Source of the DNA: Dictyostelium discoideum
Lineage: Eukaryota
Direction: 5' to 3'
DNA length: 64,000 nt
Assembly (NCBI GenBank): GCA_000004695.1
Contig: CM000152.2
Span: forward strand, 5,408,001-5,472,000
Below are positions 5,178-12,731 of the stretch, piece by piece. A program made the translations under genes and the position numbers. The notes beneath the pieces are model-generated. The model ran no database searches and was not told the origin of the DNA. It worked only from the letters and a program-made list of their open reading frames with translations. The stretch's first letter is position 1; each line of letters opens with the position of its first letter.

Positions 5178-5256
5178 ATGACGAAAAGAGTGACATTCAT
5201 TCTATTTTTATATTTATTTTTTAGTTTTACAAGTTAGTTTTATTTTTAACTTCTGT

Positions 5257-5290
<34 letters not shown>

Positions 5291-8200
5291 TAATCCACCA
5301 TTTTTTTTTTTTTTTTTTTTTTTCACTTTTTTTTTTTTTTTTTTTAAAGAATTTACTTTTAGTTTAAATATTATCAGTTCATCAATTTCAAAAAAAGAAG
5401 TAAATTTATTTGGAAATCAATTAAATTATGCAGCAATTGAAATAGAATTTGATAGTGATATATTCAAGTATGACTCATTAGGATGTCCAAATTTTAATTG
5501 TACATCAGTAGTTGGCCAAGATGAAATTGATTGTACTTGTGATTATACAGATGTTAATGATTGTCCAAAACAAATTGATTCATCATGTCCACCATGTCCA
5601 TTATTTGATAAATTTGATAATGATATAGAATTATGTAAAAACAATATTGATCCAACAGTTATTTGGACTACAGTAGTGAAAGATAAAGAATATATCTTTA
5701 CATCAGATAAATCCATTCAGTTAAGATATAAAGCAGATTCAAAGATATGTGAGCAAATTATGATACAAAATCATCAAATTAAAGGATTTTATAAATTATC
5801 AATGGGTTATTCACCAACATATTTCTCACAAAGGGATATGATTCTTAGTAATCCTTTAGTTTATGGTGTAATGAATATGTGTCCATCTGATAATATCTCT
5901 TACTTACAGGGTAAAGATTTTAATCAAGGTTGGACACAAGATACATTCTATTTCACACTTCAACCATTTAAAATTGGTAAACCATTTTCAATGTCATTCA
6001 AATTAACCTCAAAACCAGTACCACCAATTTTAACGACAACAATGACAAAATGTGAAAATATTACTAATACTCATCAATGTTTAAATGATGGTGAAATGGT
6101 TGAAAGAGATGAAGAACAACCTCAAACATACCATTATTATACATTTAAAGCGTTGAAGAGTGCAATATACACAATTAGATGTCCAACATTATATGAAACA
6201 GTTGGTATTTTAGCTGATGATGTTAATTCATTCCCAGTTTATTCATCGATAATACCTGCGAAATGGGCAAGTGTTGATAGTTTTGAAAATAATATTGTGG
6301 TTTATTTAGAAAAGGATAGTGTGATCTATATTGGTGTATACATTTCTTGGCCATCATTTTATACATTATCAATTACATCTCAAGCTTATTATTCACCAGT
6401 TAATATTTCAAGTTTACCTCCAATGGCTGCAATTTTTGCTCAAACTAAATCAAGTAGAATAAAGAATTCAATAACTCAAATCGCTTGTGAATCATGGTCT
6501 CAATGCTTTTTATATACAATTGGTGCGCCATACCTAAATAATGATCCAATATCACCTTTACCACCACCTTATTTAACTTATTTTATTCAAGATTCATTAC
6601 CATCCTTCTTTGATTTAGATTATGATGATACCTTATTAAATCCAATGAAATCAAAAACTTTTCAAGCTGCTTTCTTATTATCTTATAAAATTGGTTCTGC
6701 AACAACTTCAACTTTAATTGATTTTAATTTAGCTTTAAATTCACAAATTGAATTTTTATCAACATTTTTTGATAAAAATGGAATTGTAAGTTTTTTTTTT
6801 TTTTTCCTCAAGATTTATACTAATTATTATTTTTTAAAAAAAGGCAATTTCAAATATTGTATCATATAAAGAAAAAGAATTAGAATGTAATTATAAAGAT
6901 TTTAATGAAATTTTAAATGAAATTAATAGAATTGAAAATTTATTATATAATGTTACAGATTTAATGGAAATGAATAATTTAAGATATCAATTGGATACAT
7001 TAACAATTAGAAATAGTTATGTTGGATGTTCACATCAAGCAATTAAATTTTTAGAAAAGAAAACAGTTTTAAAGAATGTAACAGGTACCTATTGTAATTA
7101 TCAAACAACTGATCCAGAATTTGAAACTGATCCATGTTGTAGTTTAGTAATGAGATATAAACAATGTTGTAATCCAATTACAATGCAAATTGAAACGGTT
7201 GAATATGTTGGTATTGAATCAACTGATGTAAAAGATCAATGTTCCAATCCATTATGTACAGAGAGTGTTATCGATCAATATTACAATACATTGGATTCAA
7301 CACAAAATGAATGTACAATTGAAAATCAAGCATTAGATAAAATTAAAATCAATATAATTTCAACACTTCGTCAATGTCAATCAGATTTAAATATTTTATC
7401 ATCATCGAATGTAGATTGTACATTAGATAAAGATTGTTTAGAATTTAGTGGTTCAAAAAGTACTTGTGATTTATATTCAAGAAAATGTATACCAGATATT
7501 GAATATTTAGATAACCTTTACTTAAATTGTATTTTTAGTCAATTAGATAAAGGTATAATTTTTAAACTTTTAAAGAAACCTTTTATATTGGATAATCAAG
7601 ATTCATTAATTCAAGAGATTTACAATCATTATCAAAAAGATGATTGTATAAATCAAGGTCCATTTCCAAACCAAGATAGACAAAGATTTAAATATTATTC
7701 AAATTCACAAGAAGATCGTTATTATGAATCACCACTTTGTTTAGATGATTCATGTCCATTGGTTCATGATTTAAATTATGATGATATTTATGGTGATTTT
7801 AAAAGATTTTACAATTTAAATCAAGATACTATTGGTTATTGTGATCTATTAGGTTTTTGTAATTCAGATTCATCATGTATAGGTATTAATGGTGATCCAA
7901 CTCTTTCAATTTGTATTGATGATTGTAATGTAGATTTTTGTGGATTTTGTTCAAACAGTACCAATTCACTTTGTTATAATTTCAATATAAATGATCAAAC
8001 AACATGTGAATCATTAGGTCATTGTATGTTACCAAATGGTGATTATCAACAAACCACTCTAGAGAGTGAATGTCAACAATTAGGAGTTTGTTCAGTTCCT
8101 TGTGGTTATAGTTGTCAAGGTTTTATTGGTTGTGCAATTACAAATGTTATTAATGAAACTCAATGTTTAACAATTAATTCAACCACTTGGGATAACACAT

Positions 8201-10634: not shown

Positions 10635-11273
10635 AAACTATATAGGAAATAATTAATAAATAAATTCATTCATTCACACTAGACCAGTGGCCGCTACTAC
10701 ATTTTTGATCAGAATTTTAAAAAAAACGTTTTTTTTTTTTTTTTTTTTTTTTTGTAAAAAACAAATAATCTAAAAGGTTTTAAATTTTTTTAATAAAGAT
10801 TTTGATTAAATAATTATTAATTATTGAAATTTCATTTAAAAATTAAACTTTTTTTTTTTTAAAAAAAAAAAGGTTTAAAAATTAATTAACTTTAAGATAA
10901 AAAAAATTAATCAAAGATATTTTACTTTCTAAGGTAAAAAAAAAAAACTGAAAATGAAATTAAGTTTGGGAAATTTACAAATTTTTTTTTTTTTTTTTTG
11001 GGCGATAAGATTTTTTAAAATTAAAAAACATTACCATAACCTTTTTTTTTAGTTTCAAAAAAGAAAAAAACTGACAATGGTGAAGGGGTCTATTAACACT
11101 AAAAAATCCACAACCTTTAGATACAGGTGTTTGTAATTTTGTTATTTTTTGTTATTTTTTAGAATTTTTTTTTTTTTTTTTTTCCTTATTTAAATTAATT
11201 TTATAAAACATTAATTTTATACTTTTAATAATTAATTATCAATAAAAAAATAATAATAATTTAAATAAAAAAA

Positions 11274-12731
11274 ATGGAAGAATCAACTGATGTTGTTGTA
11301 AACAATAATGAATTTCATAATTTATCATTCTCTGAAAAGGAATTGGTGATGAATAAAAAGTTTATGGAAATAAAGGAAGAATGTCAAGTTACTCAAAGTG
11401 AAATTGATGCCGTAACCAAAGCTTCTAAACCAGTACCAGCTAGTGCTTTCTTAAACTTTTTTGGTACCTTTTTATCAAATGTTATTGGAAATATACCAGT
11501 TGTTGGTCCACTTGCAGGAGCTATGTTTAGTACTATTTGGGGTGAAGTATTCACAAGAAATGATGGTGCACCAGGTATGCCACCTCTACCAAGATTCTTA
11601 ACTGCTGATGAATTCCATGCTTATATGGCTGAGTTTAGAAGAGATATGGAAAGATTAATCAATCAAAGAATTGATGAATTAATTATTGCCACTAGTAATT
11701 CATTACTTTTGGATCTTAAGTTTGCATGTGATAGATGGCATGAAGTTATTGCATGGTATGAACAAGATGTTGGTCAAGGTAGACATAAATCCAGTATTCC
11801 ACAAGATAGAATACCAGTTTATCTTAAGAAGCCATTACCACCAGGATCTGAACAATTCCGTTCTTGGGAATTGAATGCAATCAGAGAAGAGATTGTCAAT
11901 CGTCATGGTCGTTGTATTGTAGAGATGAATCGTTGTATGAACTATTTCACTACAGTCGGTGGCGGTATTGAAAATAGACAATTGATGGCAGGTCATGTTA
12001 TTCAAACTTGTTGCTTTTATATTATGATCCAAAGGGATGTCTACTTTAAAGGTTCAGATTGGGGTTTCTTTAGACAACAAATCAATATTATTCCATCGGA
12101 AATCTCTATATTCATTGATAGAGCATTCAATAGTTTTTCTGCTATTGCAATGCCAAATTTCAGAACTGGTACATTCTTAAACGTAATTAATACACCAGAA
12201 TTGTACAATATCTATTCAACATTCGCATATCTCGATTTGGTTAGGTTCCCAGTGACTGGAATGAAATTAGATATTAACCCACATGATCATGTCTTAACCA
12301 TTCCACATCAATACAGTGATAATAGAATTAGAATCGTTGTAAATCAACATGGTGCATCAAAAGAACTTCCAGTGAGTCCAATACTTCCAAGGGGTTTATT
12401 ATTAGAAGGTGTTTACAATTGTGATAATTGGAGTTCCCTCGGTTACAGTTATACCGTTAGAAGACCAACTAGATCGTTCACAAGAGTAACCATTAGAGTT
12501 GCACATACTGGTAGTGCATACGCTCCATTCATGAGAATATTCGTCAATGGTCTACAATTAAATCATACAACCTCCCAATTGAAAGATATGAATTTCTATA
12601 ATGGTTCCTCGCAATCAGTTTATTTGTCTGCTACCTTTGCCTTTAATGGTCCAACCTTTGAATTCAATTTTAGATTCGATGGAAGAATGCAAAATGAATT
12701 TTCAAATCACTCAATCATTGAATTTGAATAA
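11274..12731 (+). CDS. Cry-type three-domain delta-endotoxin (insecticidal crystal protein) homologue, 485 aa, intronless.
   Basis: Motif-level matches to Bacillus thuringiensis Cry1A that I can see directly. 'FSTIWGEVF' matches domain-I 'VDIIWGIFG'. 'MERLINQRIDELI' matches 'IEQLINQRIEEFA'. 'IQRDVYFKGSDWGF' matches 'LRDVSVFGQRWGF'. The C-terminal 'NHSIIEFE' matches the block-5 'YIDRIEF' ending. Clean ATG start and no intron signals. GC is about 40%, against about 23-25% in the neighbouring 7TM gene. Confidence 0.8.
   Translation: MEESTDVVVNNNEFHNLSFSEKELVMNKKFMEIKEECQVTQSEIDAVTKASKPVPASAFLNFFGTFLSNVIGNIPVVGPLAGAMFSTIWGEVFTRNDGAPGMPPLPRFLTADEFHAYMAEFRRDMERLINQRIDELIIATSNSLLLDLKFACDRWHEVIAWYEQDVGQGRHKSSIPQDRIPVYLKKPLPPGSEQFRSWELNAIREEIVNRHGRCIVEMNRCMNYFTTVGGGIENRQLMAGHVIQTCCFYIMIQRDVYFKGSDWGFFRQQINIIPSEISIFIDRAFNSFSAIAMPNFRTGTFLNVINTPELYNIYSTFAYLDLVRFPVTGMKLDINPHDHVLTIPHQYSDNRIRIVVNQHGASKELPVSPILPRGLLLEGVYNCDNWSSLGYSYTVRRPTRSFTRVTIRVAHTGSAYAPFMRIFVNGLQLNHTTSQLKDMNFYNGSSQSVYLSATFAFNGPTFEFNFRFDGRMQNEFSNHSIIEFE

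What the first reader, a model, noticed from the sequence alone, without database searches (positions are those of the whole stretch)
5178..12731. Cys-rich 7TM receptor-like gene (4 exons) immediately upstream of, and co-oriented with, the Cry-like toxin gene
The manually spliced 5178..10634 gene encodes a signal peptide, then a ~1400-aa extracellular region packed with Cys in CxC/CxxC arrays, then seven TM helices and a Ser-rich tail. The Cry-like gene starts 640 bp downstream on the same strand. A pore-forming toxin homologue sitting beside a giant surface receptor-like protein is an unusual neighbourhood. In insects, Cry toxins act through large surface receptors, so I note the juxtaposition without claiming a functional link. 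The receptor-like protein itself has no domain I can name. It is not a PBP-type family-3 GPCR and not frizzled-like on visible motifs.
Basis: inference. Interest (0 to 1): 0.55.

Follow-up and report, generated by a model that had tools for sequence, protein, structure and literature searches.

The report
Giant amoeba 7TM protein; chance neighbour
The four-exon gene is real and encodes a member of an uncharacterised amoeba family of very large seven-helix membrane proteins, but its position next to the Cry-toxin-like gene is a recent, species-restricted accident of gene order, not a conserved pairing.

Summary
The window is Dictyostelium discoideum. The Cry-like ORF is DDB_G0282121.

It has four exons, three GT..AG introns and one open 1,729-aa frame. 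The junctions match independent gene models in sister species, and intron-less paralogues read straight across two of them.

The protein has a signal peptide, a ~1,400-aa ectodomain, seven TM helices and a Ser-rich tail. The ectodomain is Cys-rich (53 of 60 Cys in residues 498-1405 are at least 90% conserved), but it is not built of CxC/CxxC arrays.

The 7TM does have a name: Pfam PF06454, THH1/TOM1/TOM3 (E 2e-11).

The adjacency is kept in D. citrinum and D. dimigraforme. In D. firmibasis the Cry-like gene sits in the same syntenic block without this gene. In D. purpureum the orthologue lies elsewhere, and no Cry-like gene was found.

The pairing is ordinary. The protein family is moderately interesting.

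The parts
5178..5232 (+). Exon 1: start codon and most of the signal peptide (MTKRVTFILFLYLFFSFT..).
   Evidence: The same N-terminus is used in gene models P0001 and P0003.
5233..5349 (+). Intron 1 (117 nt, GT..AG, very AT-rich). Reading through it hits a stop immediately.
   Evidence: One D. firmibasis paralogue reads through this position with no intron.
5350..6785 (+). Exon 2: N-terminal part of the ectodomain (residues 19-497). No recognisable domain.
   Evidence: No Pfam hit and no PDB sequence hit.
6786..6843 (+). Intron 2 (58 nt, GTAAGT..AG).
   Evidence: Intron-less paralogues L008 and L009 align without a gap across the junction.
6844..10071 (+). Exon 3: residues 498-1573. It covers the Cys-rich ectodomain, the juxtamembrane domain and TM1-TM4.
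   Evidence: The AF2 model of residues 498-1405 has pLDDT 85 and pTM 0.81. 53 of the 60 Cys in that segment are at least 90% conserved across 41 family members.
8896..9024 (+). Long helix (residues ~1182-1224) preceding the beta-sandwich. It may be the counterpart of GAIN subdomain A.
   Evidence: Secondary structure of the model. The assignment to subdomain A is my inference.
9061..9555 (+). Membrane-proximal beta-sandwich (residues ~1237-1401), ZU5 / GAIN-subdomain-B-like. It has the invariant pair C1335/C1384 and a conserved last strand 'YFPIxR'. There is no HL|S/T-type cleavage motif.
9568..10493 (+). Seven-helix domain (residues 1406-1683, interrupted by intron 3), Pfam PF06454 THH1/TOM1/TOM3.
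   Evidence: E 2.3e-11, 44.1 bits against a cut-off of 25, profile positions 6-256 of 273. Seven hydrophobic segments.
10072..10163 (+). Intron 3 (92 nt, GTAAGT..AG), lying between TM4 and TM5.
   Evidence: Intron-less paralogues align across it. tblastn HSPs break at the same position in the D. dimigraforme and D. purpureum orthologues.
10164..10634 (+). Exon 4: TM5-TM7, the Ser-rich cytosolic tail and the stop codon.
10635..11273 (.). Intergenic spacer of 639 bp. It contains a T-run followed by TTGGGCGAT (10980-11008), which is also present upstream of the Cry-like gene in D. dimigraforme and D. firmibasis.
   Evidence: The motif is not enriched in the window overall.
11274..12731 (+). Neighbouring single-exon gene DDB_G0282121 (485 aa). 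It is a remote Cry-toxin-like protein with a helical N-terminal two thirds and a beta-rich C-terminal third. It is not functionally tied to the 7TM gene.
   Evidence: 100% identical to AX4 protein XP_640365.1. hhalign to Cry1Ac block 1 gives P 4.5e-4 and a score of 37.4 against a shuffle maximum of 28. A poor AF2 model gives weak domain-III hits.
1867..4620 (+). Upstream gene (917-aa ORF, no Pfam domain). It is a separate gene, although several public annotations fuse it to the 7TM gene.
   Evidence: Its D. firmibasis orthologue stands alone, directly upstream of the Cry-like gene.

Best explanation
Window 5178..10634 is one intact four-exon gene. It encodes a 1,729-aa membrane glycoprotein of an uncharacterised amoebozoan family.

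The architecture is:
- a cleavable signal peptide;
- a ~1,400-aa extracellular (or lumenal) region held together by about 30 conserved disulfides;
- a ZU5/GAIN-B-like beta-sandwich, which I place immediately before TM1;
- a seven-helix domain of the THH1/TOM1/TOM3 type (PF06454);
- a short Ser-rich cytosolic tail.

The most likely mode of action resembles that of an adhesion-type 7TM receptor. The large ectodomain binds a ligand, a matrix component or another cell. The juxtamembrane sandwich couples that event to the helix bundle, probably without self-cleavage.

Shown: the gene model, the topology, the Pfam membership, the family and its conserved Cys framework, and the fold match. Inferred: the surface location, ligand binding, signalling and the placement of the fold match next to the membrane.

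The gene lies next to the Cry-like gene DDB_G0282121 because of a lineage-specific rearrangement. The two genes are independent units.
For: Gene model:
- One open frame with GT..AG introns.
- The same junctions are used in orthologue gene models.
- Intron-less paralogues read across the junctions.

Topology:
- Signal-like N-terminus and seven hydrophobic segments.
- Basic residues sit in loops 1, 3 and 5, which fits an N-out, C-in orientation (read directly from the sequence).

7TM domain:
- PF06454 at E 2.3e-11, above the curated cut-off.

Family:
- An exhaustive search with residues 498-1405 finds 185 representatives at E<=1e-3 and 36 at E<=1e-30. Nearly all are 1,600-1,850 aa, with the match at the same position.
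- The named members come from Dictyostelium, Polysphondylium, Cavenderia, Acytostelium and Stygamoeba.
- 47 of 66 long members have seven C-terminal hydrophobic segments.
- 53 of 60 Cys in the segment are at least 90% conserved.

Fold:
- The AF2 model has pLDDT 85.1 and pTM 0.81.
- The only Foldseek hit at E<=1e-3 is the CD97 GAIN domain.
- GAIN, ZU5 and Nup98 are reported as one ancient domain (Liao et al. 2014, seen only as a title in the reference list of PMC11697300).

No link to the neighbour:
- Synteny breaks in D. firmibasis and D. purpureum.
Against: - No RNA evidence was available, so the splice sites rest on comparative data only.
- The fold match rests on a predicted model. The tools did not print which residues aligned, so placing the match in the membrane-proximal sandwich is my inference.
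- No sequence-level relation to GAIN, GPS or ZU5 was found.
- The catalytic H-L/F|S/T turn is absent and not conserved. A tethered-agonist mechanism is therefore unproven.
- The 7TM family is not an established GPCR family. Arabidopsis TOM1 did not bind the G-alpha subunit GPA1 (PMC2530877). A 2026 preprint places TOM proteins outside the GPCRs.
- Localisation of this protein is unknown.
- Co-expression with the neighbour was not tested.
Confidence: 0.6

Rival explanations
1. The pair is functional. The giant 7TM protein is the receptor, immunity factor or export partner of the Cry-like pore-former, and the two genes are kept together and co-regulated.
For: - The genes are co-oriented and 639 bp apart.
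- The adjacency is kept in D. citrinum and D. dimigraforme.
- The neighbour shows real, though weak, similarity to Cry domain I.
Against: - D. firmibasis keeps the Cry-like gene in the same syntenic block without the 7TM gene. No orthologue above 39% identity is on record there.
- D. purpureum keeps the 7TM orthologue elsewhere, and no Cry-like gene was found for it.
- The three species that share the adjacency are close relatives (80-95% protein identity), so shared order carries little weight.
- A T-run/TTGGGCGAT element upstream of the Cry-like gene is also present in D. firmibasis, where the upstream neighbour is different. This suggests the gene has its own promoter.
Confidence: 0.05
2. 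The protein is not a signalling receptor. It is a resident of endolysosomal, vacuolar or Golgi membranes, like the plant TOM1 proteins. Its large domain faces the lumen and serves a structural, sorting or scaffold role.
For: - The 7TM domain belongs to the TOM1/TOM3 family.
- TOM1 is described as a host seven-pass membrane protein used by tobamovirus replication complexes that form on intracellular membranes. It co-purifies with ARL8 (PMC3234234 abstract).
- TOM1 did not bind G-alpha.
- TOM proteins cluster outside the GPCRs.
Against: - Plant TOM proteins are named only for PF06454 and, to my knowledge, lack a large N-terminal region. This family adds a 1,400-aa disulfide-rich, N-glycosylation-site-bearing region and a ZU5/GAIN-like juxtamembrane domain. 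That combination is typical of surface adhesion receptors.
- A few distant relatives attach the same ectodomain module to FG-GAP or EGF domains and a single TM helix. To my knowledge those domains are typical of cell-surface proteins.
Confidence: 0.25
3. The true gene is longer. The upstream 917-aa ORF and this gene form one ~2,600-aa protein, as several public annotations have it, and there is no signal peptide at 5178.
For: Fused models exist in D. discoideum, D. citrinum and a newer D. discoideum assembly (P0011, P0002, L001 613..9364, L010).
Against: - The 917-aa ORF ends in a stop codon at 4620.
- Its orthologue stands alone in D. firmibasis.
- The 7TM orthologue stands alone in D. purpureum.
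- Models P0001 and P0003 are unfused.
- The fused models discard a canonical signal peptide that the paralogues also carry.
Confidence: 0.05

Closest known systems
Plant THH1/TOM1/TOM3 seven-pass proteins (Pfam PF06454, formerly DUF1084)
   Same: The seven-helix domain matches the family profile over almost its whole length, above the curated threshold.
   Different: The plant proteins are, to my knowledge, essentially bare 7TM proteins. They are known as host factors of tobamovirus replication on internal membranes. This protein adds a signal peptide and a 1,400-aa Cys-rich ectodomain ending in a ZU5/GAIN-like domain.
Metazoan adhesion GPCRs (class B2), e.g. CD97/ADGRE5, CELSR1, BAI3
   Different: - The helices are not of the 7tm_2 type (no Pfam hit).
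- There is no GPS motif, no conserved Trp/Cys pattern of GAIN and no HL|T cleavage turn.
- There is at most one long helix in place of the helical subdomain A.
- A survey of social-amoeba GPCRs reports no GAIN domains in amoebozoan family-2 receptors and does not mention this family (PMC10445921).
ZU5 domains (ankyrin, UNC5, PIDD; FIIND of NLRP1 and CARD8)
   Different: ZU5 domains are, to my knowledge, cytosolic. This domain is extracellular or lumenal and disulfide-bonded. No HFS/SFS self-cleavage motif is present.
Three-domain Cry delta-endotoxins of Bacillus thuringiensis (for the neighbouring gene only)
   Same: - Residues 192-276 align with Cry1Ac 111-195 (helices alpha4-alpha5, conserved block 1) at 32% identity.
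- The beta-rich C-terminal third gives weak fold hits to Cry domain III.
- UniRef names it after the Cry N-terminal domain.
   Different: - There is no Pfam Endotoxin_N, M or C hit.
- It is 485 aa, against about 600 aa for a three-domain toxin core (my recollection), so a domain II is probably missing.
- Homologues were found only in four close Dictyostelium species.
- It is a different gene from the published Endotoxin_N horizontal-transfer candidate DDB_G0289249 (PMC3188802).

Membership tests
THH1/TOM1/TOM3 (Pfam PF06454) | Match to the family profile above Pfam's gathering score. | tested here: met
   44.1 bits against a cut-off of 25, E 2.3e-11, residues 1406-1683 on profile positions 6-256 of 273. 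The orthologues carry the same precomputed domain.
THH1/TOM1/TOM3 (Pfam PF06454) | Seven transmembrane helices. | tested here: met
   Seven hydrophobic segments between residues 1419 and 1684.
THH1/TOM1/TOM3 (Pfam PF06454) | Plant-type architecture (7TM only) and a role with ARL8 and the tobamovirus replicase on internal membranes. | tested here: not met
   The architecture differs: a 1,400-aa ectodomain precedes the helices. Localisation and binding partners cannot be tested with these tools.
Adhesion GPCR (class B2) | A 7tm_2-type helix bundle. | tested here: not met
   No 7tm_2 hit at E<=1. Only PF06454 is found.
Adhesion GPCR (class B2) | A GAIN domain immediately N-terminal to TM1. | tested here: inconclusive
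Adhesion GPCR (class B2) | A GPS motif with a conserved H-L|T/S autoproteolysis turn before the last strand. | tested here: not met
   The turn is ..CFEILSVKQKETLFPI.. here and is variable across the family. Only the Cys and 'YFPIxR' are conserved.
Family-3 (class C) and Frizzled-type receptors | ANF_receptor/7tm_3 or Fz-CRD/Frizzled domains. | tested here: not met
   No such Pfam hits at E<=1 to 5.
Three-domain Cry toxin (neighbouring gene) | Endotoxin_N, Endotoxin_M and Endotoxin_C profiles. | tested here: not met
   No Pfam hit at E<=1. No NCBIfam hit. No PDB sequence hit, with either a single sequence or a profile. No tblastn hit on plasmids.
Three-domain Cry toxin (neighbouring gene) | Conserved block 1 (helix alpha5) of the pore-forming domain I. 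| tested here: inconclusive
   hhalign gives P 4.5e-4 and 32% identity over 78 columns. The score is 37.4, against 16.8 +/- 2.9 and a maximum of 28 for 200 shuffles.
Conserved toxin-receptor gene pair | Adjacency retained across species that have both genes, or either one. | tested here: not met
   Retained only in D. citrinum and D. dimigraforme. Broken in D. firmibasis and D. purpureum.

The most novel reading that the evidence does not exclude
Amoebozoa have their own class of adhesion-receptor-like proteins. In it, a non-cleaving ZU5/GAIN-type juxtamembrane domain and a ~1,400-aa disulfide-rich ectodomain are joined to a THH1/TOM1/TOM3 helix bundle instead of a class-B bundle. If so, the 'big ectodomain, GAIN-like domain, 7TM' plan either arose twice or predates the split of these 7TM families. 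It would also give the enigmatic TOM1 family a sensory ancestor.
Probability: 0.3. Interest if true: 0.65.

Novelty: new variant of a known kind. Interest (0 to 1): 0.35.

Why it matters
The juxtaposition that prompted the finding does not matter. It is a young feature of gene order in a gene-dense genome.

The protein family matters modestly, for three reasons:
- It is absent from the published catalogue of social-amoeba GPCRs (PMC10445921).
- It is multi-copy across dictyostelids and extends to other amoebae.
- It joins a 7TM type so far known mainly as a plant virus host factor to an adhesion-receptor-like ectodomain with a ZU5/GAIN-type domain.

If the family acts at the cell surface, it adds candidates for cell-cell, cell-substrate or prey recognition in Dictyostelium. 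It would also bear on how old the GAIN-plus-7TM design is.

As a practical point, several public annotations fuse this gene to its upstream neighbour and should be corrected.

Tried and rejected
- RNA evidence. The spliced protein could not be looked up in the assembly index. The three short Logan contigs that carry the Cry-like gene end in low-complexity DNA, so they are not evidence of transcription.
- Sequence searches with no result. PDB sequence searches found nothing for the 7TM, the whole-family profile (57), the N-terminal 478 aa (87) or the juxtamembrane profile (101). Pfam found nothing on exon 2 or exon 3. Pfam on 24 juxtamembrane segments found no GPS, GAIN or ZU5 (79).
- Structure of the Cry-like protein. 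Only 6 close sequences were available and the AF2 model is poor (pLDDT 42). Its Foldseek hits are weak and should not be relied on.
- Wider search for the Cry-like protein. A profile search found no relative outside the three Dictyostelium clusters, even at E<=10. tblastn against plasmids found no Cry gene.
- RNA genes. Rfam and tRNA scans of the window found nothing near the locus.
- Internal repeats. BLAST self-comparison of the Cys-rich region found none. There are only five loose C-x3-[GF]-x-C motifs.
- The TTGGGCGA motif is not enriched in the window.
- The AlphaFold-database fold library was unavailable.
- Literature. Searches for the locus tags and for PF06454 or TOM1 in Dictyostelium found no description of this family.
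- The exact spliced protein and the upstream ORF are not in the protein collection under AX4 names. I could therefore not establish the dictyBase identifier of the 7TM gene.

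
Full report
**Origin of the window**

The window is extremely AT-rich, with 25-30% G+C in coding blocks and 11-18% in spacers. The ORF at 11274..12731 is 100% identical to D. discoideum AX4 protein DDB_G0282121 (XP_640365.1, UniRef Q54SZ0). The window is therefore Dictyostelium discoideum.

**Check of the observation**

Splicing the four proposed exons gives 5,190 nt and one uninterrupted 1,729-aa frame. 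The three introns (117, 58 and 92 nt) all begin with GT and end with AG.

Independent gene models in D. cf. discoideum (P0001, 95% identity) and D. dimigraforme (P0003, 84%) use the same three junctions.

A stronger test comes from paralogues that lack the introns. The D. dimigraforme paralogue (L009) and both copies of a D. firmibasis tandem pair (L008) read without a gap across the positions of introns 2 and 3. One copy also reads across intron 1. The tblastn HSPs break at the position of intron 3 in the D. dimigraforme and D. purpureum orthologues too.

No RNA data could be reached. The short Logan contigs that carry the neighbouring gene end in low-complexity DNA, so they do not show transcription.

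Several public annotations fuse this gene to the upstream 917-aa ORF at 1867..4620 (P0011, P0002, L001, L010). I reject that fusion for four reasons:
- The ORF has its own stop codon.
- Its orthologue stands alone in D. firmibasis.
- The 7TM orthologue stands alone in D. purpureum.
- The fusion discards a typical signal peptide.

**Features of the protein**

A hydropathy scan finds a signal-like segment at residues 5-23 and seven hydrophobic segments between 1419 and 1684. Lys and Arg cluster in the loops after TM1, TM3 and TM5, which fits an N-terminus outside and a C-terminus inside. The tail is Ser-rich.

The protein has 79 Cys (4.6%), concentrated between residues 560 and 1270, with up to 11 per 100 aa. 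There are only 2 CxC, 4 CxxC and 2 CC motifs. 'Cys-rich' is correct, but 'CxC/CxxC arrays' is not.

**What the protein is**

Pfam places residues 1406-1683 in PF06454 (THH1/TOM1/TOM3). The match has E 2.3e-11 and 44.1 bits against a cut-off of 25, and covers nearly the whole profile. No class C, Frizzled or class B profile matches.

An exhaustive HMMER search of 1.84 billion cluster representatives with ectodomain residues 498-1405 found 185 proteins at E<=1e-3 and 36 at E<=1e-30. Nearly all are 1,600-1,850 aa, with the match at the same relative position.

Named members come from several Dictyostelium species, each with several paralogues. Others come from Polysphondylium violaceum, Cavenderia fasciculata, Acytostelium subglobosum and Stygamoeba regulata. 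The rest are unnamed transcriptome or metagenome proteins.

Of the 66 relatives of at least 1,300 aa, 47 have seven and 8 have six hydrophobic segments in the last 420 residues. A few distant ones carry part of the ectodomain on a single-pass anchor, with FG-GAP or EGF domains. The Stygamoeba member has a DOMON domain.

In a 41-sequence alignment reaching down to 21% identity, 31 Cys are invariant and 22 more are at least 90% conserved, out of 60 in the segment. This indicates a fixed disulfide framework.

**Structure of the ectodomain**

With that alignment, AlphaFold2 gave a confident model of residues 498-1405 (pLDDT 85.1, pTM 0.81).

Further matches fall below that line: BAI3 at 7.9, NLRP1 at 7.3 and 7.1, GPR126 at 7.0, and GPR97, GPR56 and GPR110 at 5.7-5.9. 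Foldseek's only hit at E<=1e-3 was the CD97 GAIN domain (E 1.3e-4, probability 1.00).

GAIN subdomain B, ZU5 and the Nup98 autoproteolytic domain have been described as one ancient domain. I saw this only as a title (Liao et al. 2014) in the reference list of PMC11697300.

The tools do not print the aligned residues. From the secondary structure, I assign the match to the sandwich of residues ~1237-1401. That sandwich follows a 43-residue helix and ends 17 residues before TM1. This placement is an inference.

No sequence-level relation to GAIN, GPS or ZU5 exists. The turn before the last strand lacks a conserved H-L/F|S/T motif. The family conserves only the Cys pair C1335/C1384 and a last strand 'YFPIxR'. 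If the fold assignment is right, this is a non-cleaving member of the fold.

The remaining ~740 residues of the model, and the N-terminal 478 aa, match nothing known.

**How it most likely works**

The combination of features is the plan of an adhesion-type 7TM receptor. The features are a signal peptide, a huge disulfide-stabilised ectodomain with about a dozen N-glycosylation sequons, a ZU5/GAIN-type domain next to the membrane, seven helices and a phosphorylatable tail.

My best explanation is therefore a surface sensor or adhesion protein whose ectodomain engagement is passed to the helix bundle. This part is inference.

The main rival is an internal-membrane role like that of plant TOM1. 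TOM1 is a host seven-pass protein of tobamovirus replication complexes and co-purifies with ARL8 (PMC3234234 abstract). It did not bind the G-alpha subunit GPA1 (PMC2530877). A 2026 preprint places it outside the GPCRs.

**The neighbouring gene**

DDB_G0282121 has no Pfam, NCBIfam, PDB-sequence or plasmid tblastn match. Even a profile search at E<=10 finds it only in D. discoideum, D. citrinum and D. firmibasis. A D. dimigraforme copy is visible in the DNA.

An hhalign comparison of its alignment with the Cry1Ac toxin core pairs residues 192-276 with Cry1Ac 111-195. That region covers helices alpha4-alpha5 and conserved block 1. Identity is 32% and P is 4.5e-4. The score of 37.4 compares with 16.8 +/- 2.9 (maximum 28) for 200 shuffles.

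The AF2 model of the protein is poor (pLDDT 42). It is helical for the first two thirds and beta-rich at the end. Its weak Foldseek hits include domain III of several Cry toxins.

'Cry-like' is thus plausible but remote. This gene is not the published Endotoxin_N horizontal-transfer candidate, which is DDB_G0289249 (PMC3188802).

**Is the neighbourhood meaningful?**

The order '917-aa gene, 7TM gene, Cry-like gene' is kept in other D. discoideum strains, in D. citrinum and in D. dimigraforme. These are close relatives.

In D. firmibasis the region is collinear with the window on both sides. However, the Cry-like gene follows the 917-aa orthologue directly, about 650 bp later. Nothing there matches window 5178..10634. 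The closest D. firmibasis relatives of the 7TM protein (39% identity) form a tandem pair at 1.19 Mb. The Cry-like gene lies at 8.44 Mb on the same chromosome.

In D. purpureum the 57-59% orthologue lies between Med22 and an NmrA-like gene. Its flanks match nothing in the 64-kb window, and no Cry-like protein was found for that species.

A short T-run/TTGGGCGAT element about 275 bp upstream of the Cry-like start codon is shared by all three species compared. One of these is D. firmibasis, where the upstream neighbour differs. This hints that the gene has its own promoter.

In this gene-dense window a 639-bp co-oriented spacing is unremarkable.

**Comparison with the literature and verdict**

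The phylogeny-wide survey of social-amoeba GPCRs does not mention this family. It states that no GAIN domains were detected in amoebozoan family-2 receptors (PMC10445921). Arac et al. 2012 report one D. discoideum GAIN domain with a GPS motif (gi66815909), whose identity I could not resolve. No paper found links PF06454 to Dictyostelium proteins of this kind.

My verdict has four parts:
- The gene model is confirmed.
- The toxin-receptor reading is not supported.
- The gene is a member of an uncharacterised amoebozoan family. That family is a new architectural variant: a THH1/TOM1/TOM3 bundle with an adhesion-receptor-like ectodomain.
- Interest is modest (0.35). The most novel reading not excluded is an independent class of adhesion-receptor-like proteins, which I put at about 0.3 probability.

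Noticed in passing
window 1867..4620 (+): A 917-aa single-exon ORF with no Pfam domain. Several public annotations fuse it to the 7TM gene, giving models of 2,604-2,625 aa. Comparative data indicate that these fusions are annotation errors.
   Followed up: partly
window 13035..14510 (-): The downstream, convergently oriented gene (492 aa) has a marginal Agenet domain hit (27.9 bits against a cut-off of 27). In D. firmibasis only a short, 34%-identical remnant is found at the syntenic position.
   Followed up: partly
window 10980..11008; L005 and L006 at the aligned positions: A T-run followed by TTGGGCGAT, about 275 bp upstream of the Cry-like start codon. It is conserved in D. discoideum, D. 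dimigraforme and D. firmibasis, although D. firmibasis has a different upstream neighbour. It may be a promoter element. It is not enriched elsewhere in the window.
   Followed up: partly
window ~12840..12960: A long (TTATT/TTTATTA)n microsatellite just downstream of the Cry-like gene. Public short-read contigs of this gene break inside it.
   Followed up: no
window 10676..10712 and 11076..11140: Two short islands in the spacer that are unusually G+C-rich for Dictyostelium intergenic DNA (e.g. CACTAGACCAGTGGCCGCTACTAC and CTGACAATGGTGAAGGGGTC). They are only partly conserved in D. dimigraforme. No Rfam or tRNA match.
   Followed up: partly
L008 4046..14995 (D. firmibasis) and protein P0016 (3,464 aa): Family members occur as head-to-tail tandem pairs in D. 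firmibasis. One annotated 3,464-aa protein contains two complete ectodomain-plus-7TM units. It is either a tandem pair merged by the annotation or a true double protein.
   Followed up: no
proteins P0093, P0117 and P0084 (metagenome, Logan, Stygamoeba regulata): Distant relatives carry part of the same ectodomain with other domains (FG-GAP, teneurin-like EGF, DOMON). In two cases there is a single C-terminal TM helix instead of seven.
   Followed up: partly
window 12699..12728 (C-terminus of the Cry-like protein): The protein ends in ..NHSIIEFE. By eye this resembles the conserved block 5 (..IDRIEF..) at the end of Cry toxin domain III. The resemblance is recalled from memory and was not tested.
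   Followed up: no
window 5178..10634: Neither the exact spliced 1,729-aa protein nor the upstream 917-aa ORF is present in the 15-billion-protein collection, although the neighbouring AX4 protein is. The reference annotation of these two genes probably differs from the models used here.
   Followed up: partly
protein residues 830-1115 (window ~7840..8700): There are five loose copies of a C-x3-[G/F]-x-C motif, often preceded by an acidic or polar residue (e.g. ESECQQLGVCS, KQECEQAGQCS, ESECLSTFGCS). This hints at a degenerate repeated module. BLAST self-comparison found no significant repeat.
   Followed up: partly
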